Assembly: GCA_016208545.1 (NCBI GenBank)
Contig: JACQXU010000028.1
Location: 1 to 33,374 of the forward strand
DNA from: Candidatus Uhrbacteria bacterium
GTDB taxonomy: Bacteria; Patescibacteriota; Patescibacteriia; UBA9934; GWF2-40-263
Direction of reading: 5' to 3'
DNA length: 33,374 bases
Part shown: positions 1 to 33,374 of the stretch, in pieces
Position numbering within the stretch: position 1 is the first letter of the stretch
Layout of the letters: each line of letters starts with the position of its first letter
Translations under genes and position numbers: made by a program
Notes under the pieces: generated by a model
The model's database searches: none
Told to the model about the DNA's origin: nothing
What the model saw: the letters and a program-made list of their open reading frames with translations, nothing else

Positions 1-38
1 CAATTTTGTCTTATTTCTAAGTCCTGTTTCATAGTGTA

Positions 39-650
39 ATGTCTATGCGTGTAATCTTGGTTCATGGATTCAATGCTTCTCCGCAGATGAATTTTCATCC
101 ATGGCTTGCGAGTGAACTTCGCGAGCGCGGTTTTGAAGTTGTAACACCAACTCTTCCACTTGCCGCAAGTGAGGAATTGAATTTGTCAAATATCGTCGAG
201 GAAATGAAACGACAGGTTGGGTATCTTAAAAGTGATGATATTTTGCTTGGTCATTCACTTGGCACGTTTATTGTTTTGCAATATCTCGAAGCAGTTGAAA
301 TGACAGAAACTCCGAGGGCTGTGATAATGGTTGCCGCGCCGTTAAAAGTTTCTCGTCCGGAATTGAGTCGTTTGTTTTTAGCTGATCTTGATGCTGATGT
401 CTTGATGTGGAAGTCGCGCGAGTTTGTTGTTGTTCATGCAAAAGACGACACGATGGTTCCATTTGAACATGGACAAAAACTCGCTCAAATGTTCAAGGCC
501 AGACTTGTTGAGACAAACGATGGAGGGCATTTTATGGGAGAACAATATCCAGTTCTTGTTGAGACAGTGGAAGACCTTGCAAAACAGCCGTTTGAGTTCA
601 CCCCAGGCCAAAATCTTACAGATGACTTTGCCCACAGTTTGTACCCTTGA
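39..650 (+). CDS. small alpha/beta-fold serine hydrolase (YdeN/RBBP9-like esterase)
   Basis: 203-aa ORF. It has VILVHGF near the N-terminus, the nucleophile elbow GHSLG, then AKDD and GGHF, in the Ser-Asp-His order of the alpha/beta hydrolase triad. Length is typical of YdeN-type hydrolases. ATG 39 (or 45) lies inside the end of a repeat copy that runs off the left edge. Confidence 0.75.
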   Translation: MSMRVILVHGFNASPQMNFHPWLASELRERGFEVVTPTLPLAASEELNLSNIVEEMKRQVGYLKSDDILLGHSLGTFIVLQYLEAVEMTETPRAVIMVAAPLKVSRPELSRLFLADLDADVLMWKSREFVVVHAKDDTMVPFEHGQKLAQMFKARLVETNDGGHFMGEQYPVLVETVEDLAKQPFEFTPGQNLTDDFAHSLYP

Positions 651-1068: not shown

Positions 1069-1388
1069 TTTTGTAAAATTGGACAGAGAGTTCGTTACAA
1101 TTGAATATAGATATTTATAGTAAAGAGAACCATGGGCGATCATTTAAGAATCGAATTCTTGAATGGTTGCAGAGCATCTAAGAGCATACGGAGGATGGCT
1201 AGACAGAACGTGCCGATGAAGGACGTAGCAGCCTGCGATAAGCTTCGGGGAGGTGGCAAGCAACCTTTGATCCGAAGATGTCCGAACGGGGAAACCCGAT
1301 GCGGGGAATGCCGCATCGTTCGTTGCTGAATTCATAGGCAACGGAAGGGCACCTGGGGAAGTGAAACATCTCAGTACCCAGAGGAAAA

Positions 1389-1471
1389 TAAAAAATATGT
1401 TAGGTTATAGGTTTTAGGTTCTAGGTTTTGGGAATTTCTCAACACCTACTCACTTAAAACCTAACACCTAA
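1389..1471 (+). repeat. hairpin expansion segment in 23S domain I built from 7-nt-period repeats
   Basis: It replaces the short GAAATCAACCGAGATTCC stretch of E. coli between GAGGAAAA and CCCTAAGTAGCGGCGAGCG. The left arm is TAGGTTA TAGGTTT TAGGTTC TAGGTTT and the right arm is AAAACCTAACACCTAA, its approximate complement. Confidence 0.6.
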
Positions 1472-1824
1472 TCCATTCCCTAAGTAGCGGCGAGCGAAAA
1501 GGGAACAGTCCAAACCATGATCGTGAAACCACGGCAATCATAAAGACGCAAGTCAATGTGTGAGCGGTGGCGAAAGGTGGAAGCCGTTGCGATCGTCGGT
1601 GTTGCAAGATGGTTACGTTGTCTTCTTCTAAAGACAAGTGAAATTGGTGATTTATAGCGAAAGCGACTGGAACGTCGCACCAAAGAAGGTGAAAGTCCTG
1701 TACGCGAAATAAATGCATCATTTCATTGTAATCATTCTTAAGTACTACGAGGCTCGTGAAACCTTGTAGGAACCTGCCGGGACTATCTGGCAAGACTAAA
1801 TACACGTTCTGATCGATAGTGAAC

Positions 1825-1858
<34 letters not shown>

Positions 1859-1908
1859 AAGGGGAATGAAATAGTTTCTGAAACCGTATGCTTACAAGGA
1901 GTCAGAGC

Positions 1909-2090
1909 TCCGTGTCTCACTTTCGTTCGACACGGAAATCCGAAATTCGAATGTCGAAATTCGAAATAAATTCCAAATTATAAATTCCAATGTTTCAAAT
2001 AATATTTGAGATTTATGATTTAGTTATTGTTTCGTATTTCGTATTTAGAGTTTAGAGTTTCCTCGTGACGAGCGGTAGCGAGACACGGGG
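1909..2090 (+). repeat. about 180-nt expansion at the helix-25 position of 23S, made of 7-nt-period arrays
   Basis: It is closed by CCGTGTCTC (1910-1918) pairing with GAGACACGG (2080-2088). The inside carries the arrays GAAATCC GAAATTC GAATGTC GAAATTC and TTCGTAT TTCGTAT TTAGAGT TTAGAGT. Helix 25 is a known site of intervening sequences in other bacteria. Confidence 0.6.
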
Positions 2091-2190
2091 TGATGGCGTT
2101 CCTATTGAAGAATGAGCCAACGAGTGTGTTGTGCGCCGCTGGTTAAGTCCTCCGGGACGGAGCCATAGTGAAAGCGAGCGTTAACCCGCG

Positions 2191-2262
2191 AATTTGGATT
2201 TTAGAAGTGAGAAGTTAAAGGTTGGATTTCCAATTTCTAACTTCCAACTTCCAATTTCCATT
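2191..2262 (+). repeat. about 70-nt hairpin insertion in 23S domain II, 7-nt period
   Basis: The GAAGTGA GAAGTTA array faces TTCCAAT TTCTAAC TTCCAAC TTCCAAT. It is inserted between GTTAACCCGCG and AGTGACGCGCACACGACCCGAAACC. Confidence 0.6.
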
Positions 2263-2655
2263 AGTGACGCGCACACGACCCGAAACCGGGTGACCTATCC
2301 ATGTGCAGGGTGAAGCGAATGTAACAATTCGTGGAGGCCCGAACCCACGTGCTGTGCAAAACACGGGGATGACATGTGGATAGCGGTGAAATTCCAATCG
2401 AACTCGGTAATAGCTGGTTCTCCCCGAGATAGCTTTAGGGCTAGCGTCGGTAAATAACACATAGGGGGTAGAGCACTGAAAGGGCTTTGCGGCTTCGGCT
2501 AGCGAGCCTTACCAAACTCCGAATACCTATGTGTGTTCCCGGCAGTCAGACGATGGGGGCTAAGCTCCATCCGTCAAAAGGGTAACAGCCCAGATCTCAA
2601 ACTAAGGCCCCTAAATCGCCATTAAGTGTAAAAGGTGGTGGGAAGGCTTAAACAA

Positions 2656-30957: not shown

Positions 30958-31096
30958 TGGCATCTCGTCACTTAGTGACGTGGAATGTTTACAACTTTTC
31001 ACAGGGGTGAACTTTTGTCAGCAAAATTTTTGTTATAACTTTTGTCAGCAGTTCAACCAGTTCAACTGGTTCACTTGATTCATCTTGATCGTATTT

Positions 31097-31966
31097 ATGA
31101 ATTTATTAGTTTCATCTTTATTGCATTCTTCAGTTCTAATAGTTCCGCTCAATGATGCGGAATCTATTTTGATCAGCCAGATCGCGCAAAAGATCGGCTT
31201 GCAAACAATTCTTTCAAAACAAACTCACGGCGCGTCGCTTGATAAAGGCCGCGATTATTTTCCAATCATCAAAAAAGGCAAATTCAAAAAAGTGATCGCT
31301 GTTGAAATGCCGGGGCCTAAAACGGAAACTAAGTTGAAAAAACTCGGAATCTATTTTGTTATTATTGATCATCATCATTACACAGGTTTGGATCGCGCGC
31401 ACGACGCATCTCAAAAGATGTTGCCTTCGTCACTCGAGCAATTTCTCAAACTTTTCAAACTTACAGACACAAAATTAAAAACATTAGGTTTTGATCCGAG
31501 ATTAGTTCGCGGGATAGGAATTTATGATCGCGGTTTCATTTGGGCGCTTCAAGAAGAAGGTTATGGCAAATCAGAGATAAAAAGCGTTCTCGCTTTTCAC
31601 GATGCGCTTATTTCACAAATCCACAATCCAAAAACCGAAGCGCGAAAACAATCAATCGCAAAACGCGCATGGCAAAGTCGAAAAAAATGGCGAGAATTTT
31701 TTATTGTTGAAACAAAAGCGGACATTCAACTTCGTCCGCGTTTGTCGCGAATTGTAGCAGAAGAATTTGAAAAACCAACTCCGCTTATTGTCATTGAACA
31801 CAAACGCGGTTTGATTTATATTCAAGAGTCTGACAAAGCGATAGATCTTTTTCAAAAGTTCGGCGGATTCACATTTGGCCAAGATCGTAATTGGGGGTAT
31901 CGTAATGAAAAAAGGAAAAGGCGTGTTACAGTCCGTGATGTAAAAAAAGTTTTATTGAACCAATAA
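31097..31966 (+). CDS. hypothetical protein
   Basis: This is a 289-aa ORF from ATG 31097. It contains VIIDHHHY, but I cannot place the other DHH-family motifs. No confident family assignment is possible. Confidence 0.55.
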   Translation: MNLLVSSLLHSSVLIVPLNDAESILISQIAQKIGLQTILSKQTHGASLDKGRDYFPIIKKGKFKKVIAVEMPGPKTETKLKKLGIYFVIIDHHHYTGLDRAHDASQKMLPSSLEQFLKLFKLTDTKLKTLGFDPRLVRGIGIYDRGFIWALQEEGYGKSEIKSVLAFHDALISQIHNPKTEARKQSIAKRAWQSRKKWREFFIVETKADIQLRPRLSRIVAEEFEKPTPLIVIEHKRGLIYIQESDKAIDLFQKFGGFTFGQDRNWGYRNEKRKRRVTVRDVKKVLLNQ

Positions 31967-32064
31967 GCCTGTTGCTAAATAATTTGTCAGAATAACAATA
32001 GTAGATTGCGGATAAGTAATTAAGCTAAATTAAGCCAAAAAGTATAGAAAGTGCCACTGAACCC

Positions 32065-32093
32065 TTGACAGTATTTTGGTTTCGTGGTATACT
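32065..32093 (+). promoter_or_regulatory. near-consensus sigma70 promoter TTGACA-17nt-TATACT
   Basis: TTGACA is at 32065-32070 and TATACT at 32088-32093, with exactly 17 nt between them. It is preceded by the same ACCC as the promoter at 647. Confidence 0.6.
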
Positions 32094-32099
32094 GCTGTT

Positions 32100-32351
32100 G
32101 TAAGGATGAGAACAGAAAGAAAGGGAAACGAGAACATTCAAACAATTTAATGTGTCGCCTAGGAAACGACACTTCGCTATAAAGAGCGAGAGAGCCCGAC
32201 TCTGGGGTTACAAGAGAAACCAGCTAAATCAGCTGTCATTGCGAGGAAGTCTAGCCTTAAGGCAAGACGACGAAGCAATCTCAGTGTTTAGCTTGTGAAG
32301 CAGGTTTTGGAATTCTCTCTAACAAAGGATTCTAAAACCTGCTTTTTCTTT
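32100..32351 (+). ncRNA. candidate roughly 250-nt small RNA (consensus promoter to intrinsic terminator)
   Basis: There is no ORF over 14 codons. The unit ends in a 14-bp hairpin, GCAGGTTTTGGAAT (32300-32313) with ATTCTAAAACCTGC (32329-32342), followed by TTTTTCTTT. It contains one arm of the GTCATTGCGAGG repeat. Confidence 0.4.
32235..32282 (+). repeat. single arm of the GTCATTGCGAGG repeat family
   Basis: GTCATTGCGAGGAAGTCTAGCCTTAAGGCAAGACGACGAAGCAATCTC has the same module order as 23531-23568, with a longer internal hairpin. Confidence 0.6.
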
Positions 32352-32975
32352 ATGAAAAAGCAACTCGTAGTGCTCGGATAGATAGGAGTGGGGGCCGCAA
32401 GGTCACCAAAAGCGAGAGAGCTTAATCCTATTTACCAGAGTCTACACTCTGACAATCTCCGGCCTTTTGGCTGGATCTTCCGGGGACGACAACCGGAAAC
32501 GTCGAGGTCGCTGGAATACGTCCGTTCGCCTGATGGTTATCAGGCGAACAGGCACAAGGCGATCTCCCCAATGTGAGTCAGATCACATTGTGGTAATGAG
32601 TGCGCAAGAGTGGAAATTAAACTTCCATTCCTTGCACTCCTTATCACTAAAACATGTGGTAGACGCAGGCTTCAGCCTGCGTGACTTCGCGAGAGAGGAG
32701 TGTTCGTTACAACTAAATAATCTTCGATCGTTTTTTCTGAACTCAACCGTTTTTGAACTATCCGTCCGTGCACGACACTTTGTGCCGAATGCGCGAACAA
32801 CGGACTCAAAGAGCAGGTGACTTTGGATAACGATCTTCCTTAGCTCGTAATCTCTATATTTATGAGTTTTGGAAGCGCCACCTCATGTGAGGCGACGCGA
32901 CTGATTTTGGGCACCCATGCCCTCCGCTTGATGCGGAAAAAATGGGGAGAAATAAAATGTGCCAGATGAATTGTA

Positions 32976-33142
32976 CCCGCGCGGCCGCCGCGCGGGCAAT
33001 CTTCTCGGCGAAGGCGGCGGGCCGTCAGGCCCCCGCCTTCTACCTCGGCGTTCTCGCCGCGTACGCGCGGCAGGACAAGGCCGAGGAGACCCGCAGGGCG
33101 TACCTGCGGGCCCGTGGCTGGCGCGTCTCGCGCTAGCTCGCC
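32976..33142 (+). other. roughly 165-bp very GC-rich block, foreign-looking in this AT-rich sequence
   Basis: It is a run of GC hairpins (CCCGCGCGG-CCG-CCGCGCGGG at 32976-32996, GAAGGCGGCGGGCC/GGCCCCCGCCTTC, CCCGCAGG/CCTGCGGG). In the frame of ORF 32942-33136, 49 of 53 codon third positions are G or C (hand count). Confidence 0.5.
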
Positions 33143-33374
33143 ACAAAAAAGAGGAAAGGAAAAAAAACGATGAGTAACTAGCAACATCCGCGTTTGATTG
33201 GCACGCGGGTGTGAAGAAAAAGCGGCAAAGGTCCGCAAAGTCAGTCCGGGGTGTTCGTACTCCTCGTTAGGGTCGCACCAAAATACGGACGAGTTTCGGC
33301 TCGTAAAAACCGAAAAAGCATTCGGGGAGCGTTGCGATTGCACATCGCTTCGCTCCCCAACTCACTTTGCTACT

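What the first reader, a model, noticed from the sequence alone, without database searches (positions are those of the whole stretch)
32976..33142. 165-bp GC-rich island with coding-type GC3 skew: foreign gene fragment, chimeric assembly or GC-cluster element
Seen: the composition changes abruptly at about 32976 and again at about 33142. In the frame of ORF 32942-33136 (…TRAAAARAIFSAKAAGRQAPAFYLGVLAAYARQDKAEETRRAYLRARGWRVSR), 49 of 53 third positions are G or C, while first and second positions are less biased. That pattern is typical of genuine genes from high-GC organisms and not of random GC-rich DNA. The AT-rich 5' part of the ORF (MGRNKMCQMNC) looks like local sequence. The block also folds into five consecutive GC hairpins.
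Basis: seen in the sequence. Interest (0 to 1): 0.5.

Follow-up and report, generated by a model that had tools for sequence, protein, structure and literature searches.

The report
GC-rich hairpin-packed mini-gene in accessory module
The 167-base GC-rich patch is not foreign DNA or an assembly error: it is the body of a tiny gene with a conserved folded leader, and its high GC most likely comes from selection for a tightly folded RNA; it belongs to a strain-specific gene module that other groundwater CPR bacteria also carry.

Summary
Window 32976-33142 is 77% GC in a 41.5% GC genome. One frame has 93% GC3 (permutation p = 0.00075). The stretch folds into five back-to-back hairpins (z = -7.7 against dinucleotide shuffles, -6.2 against codon shuffles).

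The island is the body of a 59-codon ORF (32957-33136). A Shine-Dalgarno site and a ~95-nt structured leader (32864-32956) precede it.

A profile built only from two homologous units in other Patescibacteria contigs hits exactly this leader in the whole genome (E = 4e-7). The peptide resembles their 62-aa ORF (0 of 5000 shuffles reach the score).

The unit lies in an insertion of at least 4 kb, spanning the contig C13 end and C25 start, between genes that abut in same-genus genomes. The insertion also carries AAA_14/DUF4143 ATPases (PADLOC PDC-S01) and a GC-rich membrane-protein gene. Both have homologues in the same foreign modules.

Between the two closest homologues of the mini-gene, 58 of 60 predicted base pairs survive 32 substitutions. 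The changes fall evenly on the three codon positions (dN/dS about 0.7), so RNA structure is conserved more than the peptide.

This scan has already noted GC-rich, hairpin-packed orphan genes in other CPR genomes. This is a small new member of that kind.

The parts
32864..32956 (+). Conserved structured leader: three hairpins closed by pairing of a U-run with the purine-rich Shine-Dalgarno region. GGGGAG lies at 32944-32949, 7 nt before the ATG.
   Evidence: An nhmmer profile built from L055 and L057 only gives one hit in the whole genome, C13:32863-32945, E = 4.2e-7. RNAalifold predicts 27 pairs, 6 of them with compensatory changes among three sequences. Alignment A4 has 80% mean column identity.
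32957..33136 (+). 59-codon ORF (MCQMNCTRAAAARAIF...GWRVSR, stop TAG at 33134-33136). An in-frame upstream ATG at 32942 would give 64 codons.
   Evidence: ORF listing. GC1/2/3 = 67/62/90%. Local alignment with the 62-aa ORF of L055 scores 59 against 27 +/- 5 for shuffles (0 of 5000) and starts exactly where the GC-rich part starts.
32976..33142 (+). The flagged GC-rich island: five back-to-back hairpins at 32976-32996, 33010-33040, 33043-33086, 33090-33110 and 33114-33141. The last one encloses the stop codon.
   Evidence: Sense strand -118 and antisense -112.5 kcal/mol.
33143..33168 (+). A-rich run directly after the terminal hairpin. An A-run also follows the terminal, stop-enclosing hairpin in L055 and L057.
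   Evidence: Sequence; alignment A5.
33320..33374 (+). Module-internal repeat with an imperfect 15-bp hairpin (33324-33358); the contig ends inside it. A second copy is at C25:1057-1115, just 3' of the ATPase gene, and a third is in L055.
   Evidence: 91% match to C25:1062-1104. Alignment A6 shows compensatory inner-stem changes in L055.
31967..33374 (.). C13 part of the strain-specific insertion. The remainder is contig C25:1-2610, outside the window. It holds the N-terminus of a second ATPase, a GC-rich 198-aa membrane/Cys-rich ORF, the repeat, and an AAA_14/DUF4143 ATPase.
   Evidence: In G001 and G002 the 293-aa gene is followed directly by the 395-aa gene. In G000 the orthologues of that gene, ruvA and femAB lie on C25:2611 onward.

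Best explanation
The island is the body of a very small gene unit. The unit consists of a ~95-nt structured leader, a Shine-Dalgarno site, and a 59-codon ORF whose transcript folds into five consecutive GC hairpins, the last enclosing the stop codon.

The unit is one component of an accessory module. The other components are AAA_14/DUF4143 'PDC-S01' ATPase genes and a GC-rich membrane/Cys-rich protein gene. In this strain the module is inserted between two housekeeping-neighbourhood genes. Related groundwater Patescibacteria carry it at other genomic places.

The high GC is not a donor signature. It goes with, and is most likely maintained by, selection for a hairpin-packed RNA. The peptide, if made, evolves almost freely.

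Shown: the composition, the fold, the homology of leader, ORF and module, and the structure-preserving substitution pattern in the two closest homologues.

Inferred: the leader gates translation by occluding the ribosome-binding site. The hairpin chain stabilises or insulates the transcript, or is itself the functional RNA. The unit works together with the neighbouring ATPase.
For: Homology of the unit: a profile from L055 and L057 alone finds only C13:32863-32945 in 1.6 Mb searched (E = 4.2e-7). The peptide alignment score is 59 against 27 +/- 5 for shuffles, 0 of 5000.

Homology of the module: the ATPase is 73-77% identical to Patescibacteria homologues. The C25 198-aa ORF matches the L055 186-aa ORF at 39% identity, E = 5e-28, in the same convergent position next to the ATPase. 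The hairpin repeat is shared.

Insertion: in G001 and G002 the 293-aa and 395-aa genes abut. In G000 they lie on the C13 end and the C25 start, with ruvA and femAB following as in G001.

Structure over peptide: L055 and L057 differ at 32 of 189 nt, spread 10/9/13 over the codon positions, dN/dS 0.73. Yet 58 of 60 predicted pairs stay canonical (null 47.7 +/- 2.0, 0 of 5000), and the changes avoid stems (p = 8e-4).

Class trait: every GC-rich gene of the module is hairpin-packed against codon-shuffled controls (z = -3.8 to -14.5). The low-GC ATPase genes are not (z = -1.2 and +0.8).

Leader: 6 compensatory pairs among three sequences.

GC-rich genes are native to this lineage: the C15 199-aa ORF (GC3 94%) has a 52%-identical syntenic homologue, also at GC3 88%, in a 44% GC contig from another sample.
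Against: Only three lineages of the unit are known, and C13 is distant (about 36% peptide identity). Its hairpins do not sit at the same aligned positions as those of L055 and L057.

The structure-conservation test was made on the two relatives, not on C13.

No convincing promoter was found in front of the C13 unit.

In C13 the U-run pairs beside the Shine-Dalgarno site and not on it.

The strong GC3 skew of C13 (93%) is larger than in the relatives (79-83%) and is not explained by RNA structure alone.

Expression, translation and any link to the ATPase are untested. Read support for this contig could not be examined.
Confidence: 0.62

Rival explanations
1. The leader and the 'ORF' together are one non-coding structured RNA of about 280 nt. 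The open frame is a by-product of GC richness and is not translated.
For: dN/dS is 0.73 and substitutions are flat over codon positions between L055 and L057, while stems are conserved. By my own estimate, at 72% GC a 62-codon frame stays open by chance about one time in three. The peptide matches no family.
Against: A Shine-Dalgarno site and an ATG stand at the same place in all three lineages. L055 and L057 have the same ORF length without indels. GC3 > GC1 > GC2 holds in the same frame in all three, with period-3 p = 0.00075 in C13. The sister gene in the module is demonstrably a conserved protein although equally hairpin-packed.
Confidence: 0.22
2. The island is a 3' fragment of a gene recently imported from a high-GC organism.
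For: Atypical composition with high GC3. It lies in a strain-specific insertion. The GC-rich part starts 6 codons after the ATG.
Against: No homologue at E <= 0.001 in 1.84 billion representatives, and none in the genome, viral or metagenome contig collections. The only relatives are same-sized units in Patescibacteria with a homologous low-GC leader, so the unit is complete and not truncated. GC-rich genes with low-GC flanks persist at syntenic sites in this lineage.
Confidence: 0.07
3. The island is a mobile GC-rich palindromic element (GC-cluster, REP or MITE-like) that landed in non-coding DNA.
For: It is made of hairpins only. The genome is full of palindromic repeats (383 perfect hairpins with stems of 8 bp or more; long MITE-like palindromes). 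A weak 23-nt inverted repeat (78% complementary) flanks it at 32899-32921 and 33224-33246.
Against: It is single-copy in the genome and was not found in 162 genomes of the order. No target-site duplication is seen. Period-3 composition and homology to an ORF-bearing unit in relatives speak against it.
Confidence: 0.05
4. Assembly chimera: a short high-GC piece from another organism was spliced into the contig near its end.
For: The island lies 230 nt from a contig end in a metagenome-assembled genome. Reads could not be inspected.
Against: It is flanked on both sides by sequence that belongs to the same homologous module: the leader upstream and the module repeat downstream. The frame, the Shine-Dalgarno site/ATG and the stop line up with the composition boundaries. 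Independent assemblies from other samples show the same mosaic of low-GC and GC-rich parts.
Confidence: 0.04

Closest known systems
GC-rich, hairpin-packed orphan genes or cassettes of CPR/Patescibacteria, as noted repeatedly by this scan (e1-4090913, e1-1007976, e1-4617070, e1-795242). I know of no published description.
   Same: A low-GC genome, with the GC rise confined to the gene body behind native-type expression signals. Fast-evolving orphan products. A sense strand unusually rich in hairpins. Structured RNA leaders.
   Different: This one is far smaller (59 codons). It is not at a conserved slot but in a strain-specific module. It is linked to AAA_14/DUF4143 ATPase genes. Its leader motif was not found in 72 family genomes.
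Horizontally acquired compositional islands (the amelioration framework of Lawrence and Ochman, from my own knowledge; genomic islands of groundwater Patescibacteria, PMC12455944)
   Same: Atypical composition. Absent from the closest relatives. Sits in a variable slot.
   Different: No high-GC donor was found. The GC rise is limited to ORF bodies while the co-transferred ATPase and leaders are low-GC. The GC-rich state persists in diverged homologues.
Structured translational leaders and riboswitch-like 5' UTRs
   Same: A conserved multi-hairpin leader ending at the ribosome-binding site. Covarying stems. A closing helix that involves the Shine-Dalgarno region.
   Different: No Rfam family matches. 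No ligand or regulator is known. Only three sequences are available. The downstream ORF is itself a hairpin chain.
Mitochondrial GC clusters, bacterial REP/BIME elements and Rickettsia palindromic elements
   Same: GC-rich palindromic hairpins in an AT-richer genome. The Rickettsia elements can be translated in frame.
   Different: Those are multi-copy families inserted into pre-existing sequence. The island is single-copy, its five hairpins are all different, and it is not an insert in a conserved host gene.
PADLOC candidate defence gene PDC-S01 (AAA_14 + DUF4143 ATPase)
   Same: The neighbouring ATPase matches the PDC-S01 models at E = 4e-72. It is patchily distributed (14 of 162 genomes of the order).
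   Different: PDC-S01 is defined as a single-gene candidate. No RNA or small-ORF partner is described for it, and 22 more distant homologues in the order show no consistent GC-rich structured neighbour.

Membership tests
Gene fragment or island imported from a high-GC donor | Homologues, ideally longer ones, in high-GC taxa | tested here: not met
   phmmer against 1.84 billion representatives gave 0 hits. Back-translated pattern scans with tblastn of the genome, viral and metagenome contig collections found none. The only relatives are in Patescibacteria modules.
Gene fragment or island imported from a high-GC donor | Atypical composition extends over the imported segment, intergenic parts included | tested here: not met
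   The GC rise is confined to ORF bodies. The homologous leader, the ATPase genes and the spacers are 25-50% GC.
Gene fragment or island imported from a high-GC donor | Absent from close relatives at the same site | tested here: met
   G001 and G002 have the two flanking genes adjacent.
Assembly chimera | Depth steps or split reads at both boundaries | not testable with these tools
Indirect evidence is against it.
Repeated GC-cluster, REP or MITE-type palindromic element | Several related copies in the genome or in relatives | tested here: not met
   One match in the own genome. None in 60 relatives or in 162 genomes of the order.
Repeated GC-cluster, REP or MITE-type palindromic element | Hairpin-forming palindromes | tested here: met
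   Five hairpins, z = -7.7.
Leader + small-ORF unit of the L055/L057 module (a family defined here) | Homologous structured leader directly upstream of the ATG | tested here: met
   nhmmer profile built without C13 gives E = 4.2e-7 and a single genome-wide hit. Covariation in two of the three hairpins.
Leader + small-ORF unit of the L055/L057 module (a family defined here) | Similar small GC-rich ORF of about 60 codons ending in a stop-enclosing hairpin and an A-run | tested here: met
   Peptide similarity reached by 0 of 5000 shuffles. Lengths are 59 and 62 codons. Folds, alignment.
Leader + small-ORF unit of the L055/L057 module (a family defined here) | Same gene module (AAA_14/DUF4143 ATPase, GC-rich TM/Cys protein, hairpin repeat) | tested here: met
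Leader + small-ORF unit of the L055/L057 module (a family defined here) | Hairpins at conserved positions in the ORF | tested here: inconclusive
   Conserved between L055 and L057. The C13 hairpins are offset in the alignment.
Riboswitch or translational leader | Ribosome-binding site sequestered in a conserved helix | tested here: inconclusive
   The U-run pairs with AGAAAGG in L055 and L057, but in C13 mostly with the spacer after GGGGAG.
Riboswitch or translational leader | Known Rfam family | tested here: not met
   No match at the gathering threshold or at E <= 10.
Type I toxin-antitoxin toxin mRNA | Small hydrophobic membrane peptide | tested here: not met
   The peptide is Ala/Arg-rich and basic, with no long hydrophobic stretch (translation).
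PDC-S01 candidate defence ATPase (the neighbour, not the island) | Match to the PADLOC PDC-S01 models; AAA_14 + DUF4143 domains | tested here: met
   E = 4.4e-72. Pfam PF13173 and PF13635.

The most novel reading that the evidence does not exclude
The hairpin chain is the functional product. It would be a structured RNA, optionally translated into a throw-away basic peptide, that acts as partner of the adjacent AAA_14/DUF4143 defence-candidate ATPase, as sensor, decoy or antidote. More generally, CPR bacteria would keep a class of genes whose GC-rich 'codon dialect' is a side effect of selection for hairpin-packed transcripts.
Probability: 0.15. Interest if true: 0.7.

Novelty: new variant of a known kind. 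Interest (0 to 1): 0.5.

Why it matters
Sharp GC-rich islands in low-GC genomes are routinely read as foreign DNA or misassembly. Here the evidence points elsewhere. The GC rise tracks a hairpin-packed transcript. Related units keep the base pairs while the peptide drifts. The low-GC genes that travel with it in the same module show no such folding.

If general, this would explain the many GC-rich orphan genes of CPR bacteria by selection at the RNA level. It would also caution against composition-based calls of gene transfer or contamination in these genomes. Finally, it supplies a new covarying leader motif and a candidate RNA or small-protein partner for an uncharacterised defence-candidate ATPase.

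Tried and rejected
Searches with the island peptide all found nothing: Pfam, PHROGs and PADLOC; phmmer against 1.84 billion representatives; the search for related loci in the genome, viral and metagenome contig collections.

Exact look-ups of the 64-aa and 59-aa ORFs and of the neighbouring 293-aa protein were not on record, so no independent assembly of this very locus was obtained.

blastn of 32352-33374 against the phage and plasmid collections gave no match.

Rfam at E <= 10 over 31900-33374 gave only chance-level hits.

blastn of the tail against 60 relatives and against 162 genomes of the order gave only short repeats. One 33-nt GC-rich match fell in an ordinary gene of a 60% GC relative and was judged chance.

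The minus-strand 167-aa ORF 32840-33343 was rejected: wrong codon-position pattern, junk-like sequence, no family.

I tested whether GC-rich structured DNA generally follows AAA_14/DUF4143 genes. No consistent pattern appeared among 22 more distant homologues in the order.

I tested whether the hairpins keep a fixed phase with the reading frame. The phases are mixed, so this was not informative.

More members of the 62-aa family were sought in 162 genomes and two collections. Only one near-identical copy from the same aquifer turned up.

The leader covariance model found no further copy in G000, in 72 family genomes, or in the held loci.

Full report
**Setting.** The window is the whole contig C13 of an 817-kb, 57-contig genome with 41.5% GC and 92% completeness. 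It carries a 23S rRNA gene with group I introns. Earlier notes of this scan call the organism Candidatus Uhrbacteria (CPR); I did not verify that name. The finding lies 230 nt from the contig's 3' end, in a 1.4-kb stretch without credible long ORFs.

**Observation.**
- Window 32976-33142 is 167 bp at 77% GC, with sharp edges. Its best 100-nt window (0.78) exceeds the 99.99th percentile of the genome.
- In the frame of ORF 32942-33136 the GC at codon positions 1/2/3 is 72/65/93%, 50 of 54 third positions. The permutation p is 0.00075.
- The A/T bases sit at positions 1-2 in about 20 separate places along the island. The phase signal is therefore not local (my reading).
- The RNA fold is a chain of five hairpins: -125 kcal/mol against -91 +/- 4.4 for dinucleotide shuffles, z = -7.7. 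Against codon shuffles, which keep the periodicity, z = -6.2.

**The island is unique and its peptide has no distant relatives.**
- It is single-copy in the genome.
- It was not found in 60 relatives or in 162 genomes of the order.
- The peptide has no Pfam, PHROG or PADLOC match.
- It has no hit among 1.84 billion representative proteins.
- It has no confirmed relative in the genome, viral or metagenome contig collections.
- These results argue against a recognisable gene from a high-GC donor.

**Genomic context.**
- In the two same-genus genomes the 293-aa gene (window 31085-31966) is followed directly by a 395-aa gene, then ruvA and femAB.
- In this genome those three genes lie at the start of contig C25, from 2611 on.
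- C13:31967-33374 and C25:1-2610 are therefore the two ends of a strain-specific insertion of at least 4 kb.
- C13 ends inside a 55-nt repeat with a hairpin. The repeat recurs at C25:1057-1115, just 3' of an ATPase gene. This explains the assembly break.
- On C25 the insertion holds four things: the N-terminus of a second ATPase (3-209, minus strand), a 198-aa GC-rich ORF (335-931, GC3 about 80%), the repeat, and a full AAA_14/DUF4143 ATPase (1144-2421, minus strand).
- That ATPase matches the PADLOC candidate PDC-S01 at E = 4e-72.
- In other genera the slot between the two flanking genes holds other genes, so it is a flexible site.

**GC-rich genes are native to this lineage.**
- The genome has several high-GC3 ORFs.
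- One, C15:16863-17462 (GC3 94%), has a 52%-identical homologue at the syntenic place (between trmB and holB) on a 44% GC contig from another sample. That gene is also 66% GC with GC3 88%.
- GC-rich gene bodies with low-GC flanks therefore persist over long divergence. This does not fit unameliorated foreign DNA or chimeras.

**The island's relatives.**
- The ATPase has 73-77% identical homologues on Patescibacteria contigs from independent samples.
- There the low-GC ATPase sits among GC-rich orphan genes.
- One of these, a 62-aa ORF (L055:5262-5450 and L057:4403-4591), resembles the island peptide. The local score is 59 against 27 +/- 5 for composition-preserving shuffles, 0 of 5000. The alignment starts exactly at the first GC-rich codon.
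- The ~95 nt upstream are homologous too (alignment A4).
- A profile built from L055 and L057 alone finds one hit in the whole genome, C13:32863-32945, E = 4.2e-7.
- The consensus fold of this leader has three hairpins inside a helix that pairs a U-run with the Shine-Dalgarno region. Six pairs carry compensatory changes among only three sequences.
- The 198-aa ORF on C25 is homologous to the 186-aa GC-rich ORF that lies convergent to the ATPase in L055 (39% identity, E = 5e-28). The hairpin repeat is shared as well.
- The island is therefore the body of a complete small unit (leader, SD GGGGAG at 32944-32949, ATG 32957, 59 codons, stop inside hairpin 5, A-run). It belongs to a module that moves between genomic sites: beside trmB in L057, beside a helicase in L053, and between the 293-aa and 395-aa genes here.

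**What is conserved.**
- L055 and L057 differ at 32 of 189 nt without indels.
- The changes fall 10/9/13 on codon positions 1/2/3, and dN/dS is 0.73.
- Yet 58 of the 60 pairs predicted for L055 stay canonical in L057. The null is 47.7 +/- 2.0 when the same substitutions are placed at random, 0 of 5000.
- Only 11 of the 32 changes touch paired bases, which make up 63% of the sequence (p = 8e-4).
- All GC-rich genes of the module are hairpin-packed against codon-shuffled controls: C25 ORF z = -14.5, its L055 homologue -11.6, the others -3.8 to -9.9. The ATPase genes are not (-1.2 and +0.8).
- The C25 ORF folds better as sense than as antisense (-344 against -300 kcal/mol), which points to the RNA. 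For the island the difference is small (-118 against -112.5).
- The most economical reading is that GC richness here accompanies selection for a tightly folded transcript.
- The conserved SD/ATG, the constant ORF length and GC3 > GC1 > GC2 in all three lineages suggest the frame is also translated, into a fast-evolving basic peptide. I hold the purely non-coding variant at about 0.2.

**Mechanism (inferred, not shown).** The leader could gate translation by occluding the ribosome-binding site. The hairpin chain could protect the transcript or be the active RNA. Recurrence of the unit with the AAA_14/DUF4143 ATPase in three lineages suggests a functional tie. More distant ATPase homologues show no consistent structured neighbour.

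**Rejected readings.**
- A fragment from a high-GC donor: no donor was found and the unit is complete.
- A repeated GC-cluster or MITE: it is single-copy with no target duplication. A weak flanking inverted repeat exists.
- A chimera: both flanks belong to the same homologous module, and independent assemblies show the same mosaic.

**Relation to earlier work.** Published work documents genomic islands and gene exchange in groundwater Patescibacteria (PMC12455944). In the passages I searched it does not describe GC-rich hairpin-packed genes. Earlier notes of this scan describe such genes in other CPR and Uhrbacteria genomes. My results agree with them on independent tests. They add a small member in a mobile module, a covarying leader, and a direct substitution-pattern test.

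**Verdict.** It is a new, small variant of a kind this scan has seen before, of moderate interest.

Noticed in passing
window 32663-32682: The 20-nt hairpin ACGCAGGCTTCAGCCTGCGT recurs at about 96% identity at many places in many related genomes. It is a widespread short hairpin repeat of unknown role.
   Followed up: no
window 31996-32350: An sRNA-like unit with a near-consensus promoter (32065-32093, 11 of 12 matches) and a terminator-like end. Parts of it match syntenic stretches in G038, G042 and G019.
   Followed up: no
G000 contig C25:335-931 (locus L011): A 198-aa GC-rich ORF with an N-terminal membrane helix and a Cys/His-rich C-terminus. Its mRNA is the most hairpin-dense stretch of the genome (seven perfect hairpins in 185 nt; z = -14.5 against codon shuffles). 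It is homologous to the L055 186-aa ORF, which is equally hairpin-packed.
   Followed up: partly
G000 contig C15:16863-17462 (locus L010) and L026:5001-5558: A GC3-extreme 199-aa gene between trmB and holB. A 52%-identical, equally GC-rich homologue lies at the syntenic site of a 44% GC contig from another sample.
   Followed up: partly
G000 contig C42:22970-23210 (locus L012): A duplicated tRNA 3' end with its upstream spacer forms direct repeats beside a 376-aa GC-rich ORF (C42:21754-22884). It looks like an integration scar.
   Followed up: no
G000 contigs C44:1-520 and C5:3900-4210: GC-rich hairpin arrays without codon periodicity. Some have terminator-like T-runs. They are possibly small RNA genes.
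   Followed up: no
G000 contig C50:3989-4150: A near-perfect palindrome with arms of about 65 bp, the most stable 150-nt window of the genome. Other MITE-like long palindromes lie at C41:2690, C5:7516 and C15:10043.
   Followed up: no
homologues of the AAA_14/DUF4143 ATPase (P0006-P0124): Many homologues lie on contigs barely longer than the gene (1.4-2 kb). Assemblies seem to break at its ends, as expected for a multi-copy or mobile gene.
   Followed up: no
L017 (G007) and L019 (G005), between the 293-aa and 395-aa gene orthologues: In other genera the same intergenic slot holds 0.5-0.7 kb of coding-looking sequence not found in G000. I did not identify the inserts. The slot is a recurrent site of gene-content variation.
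   Followed up: partly
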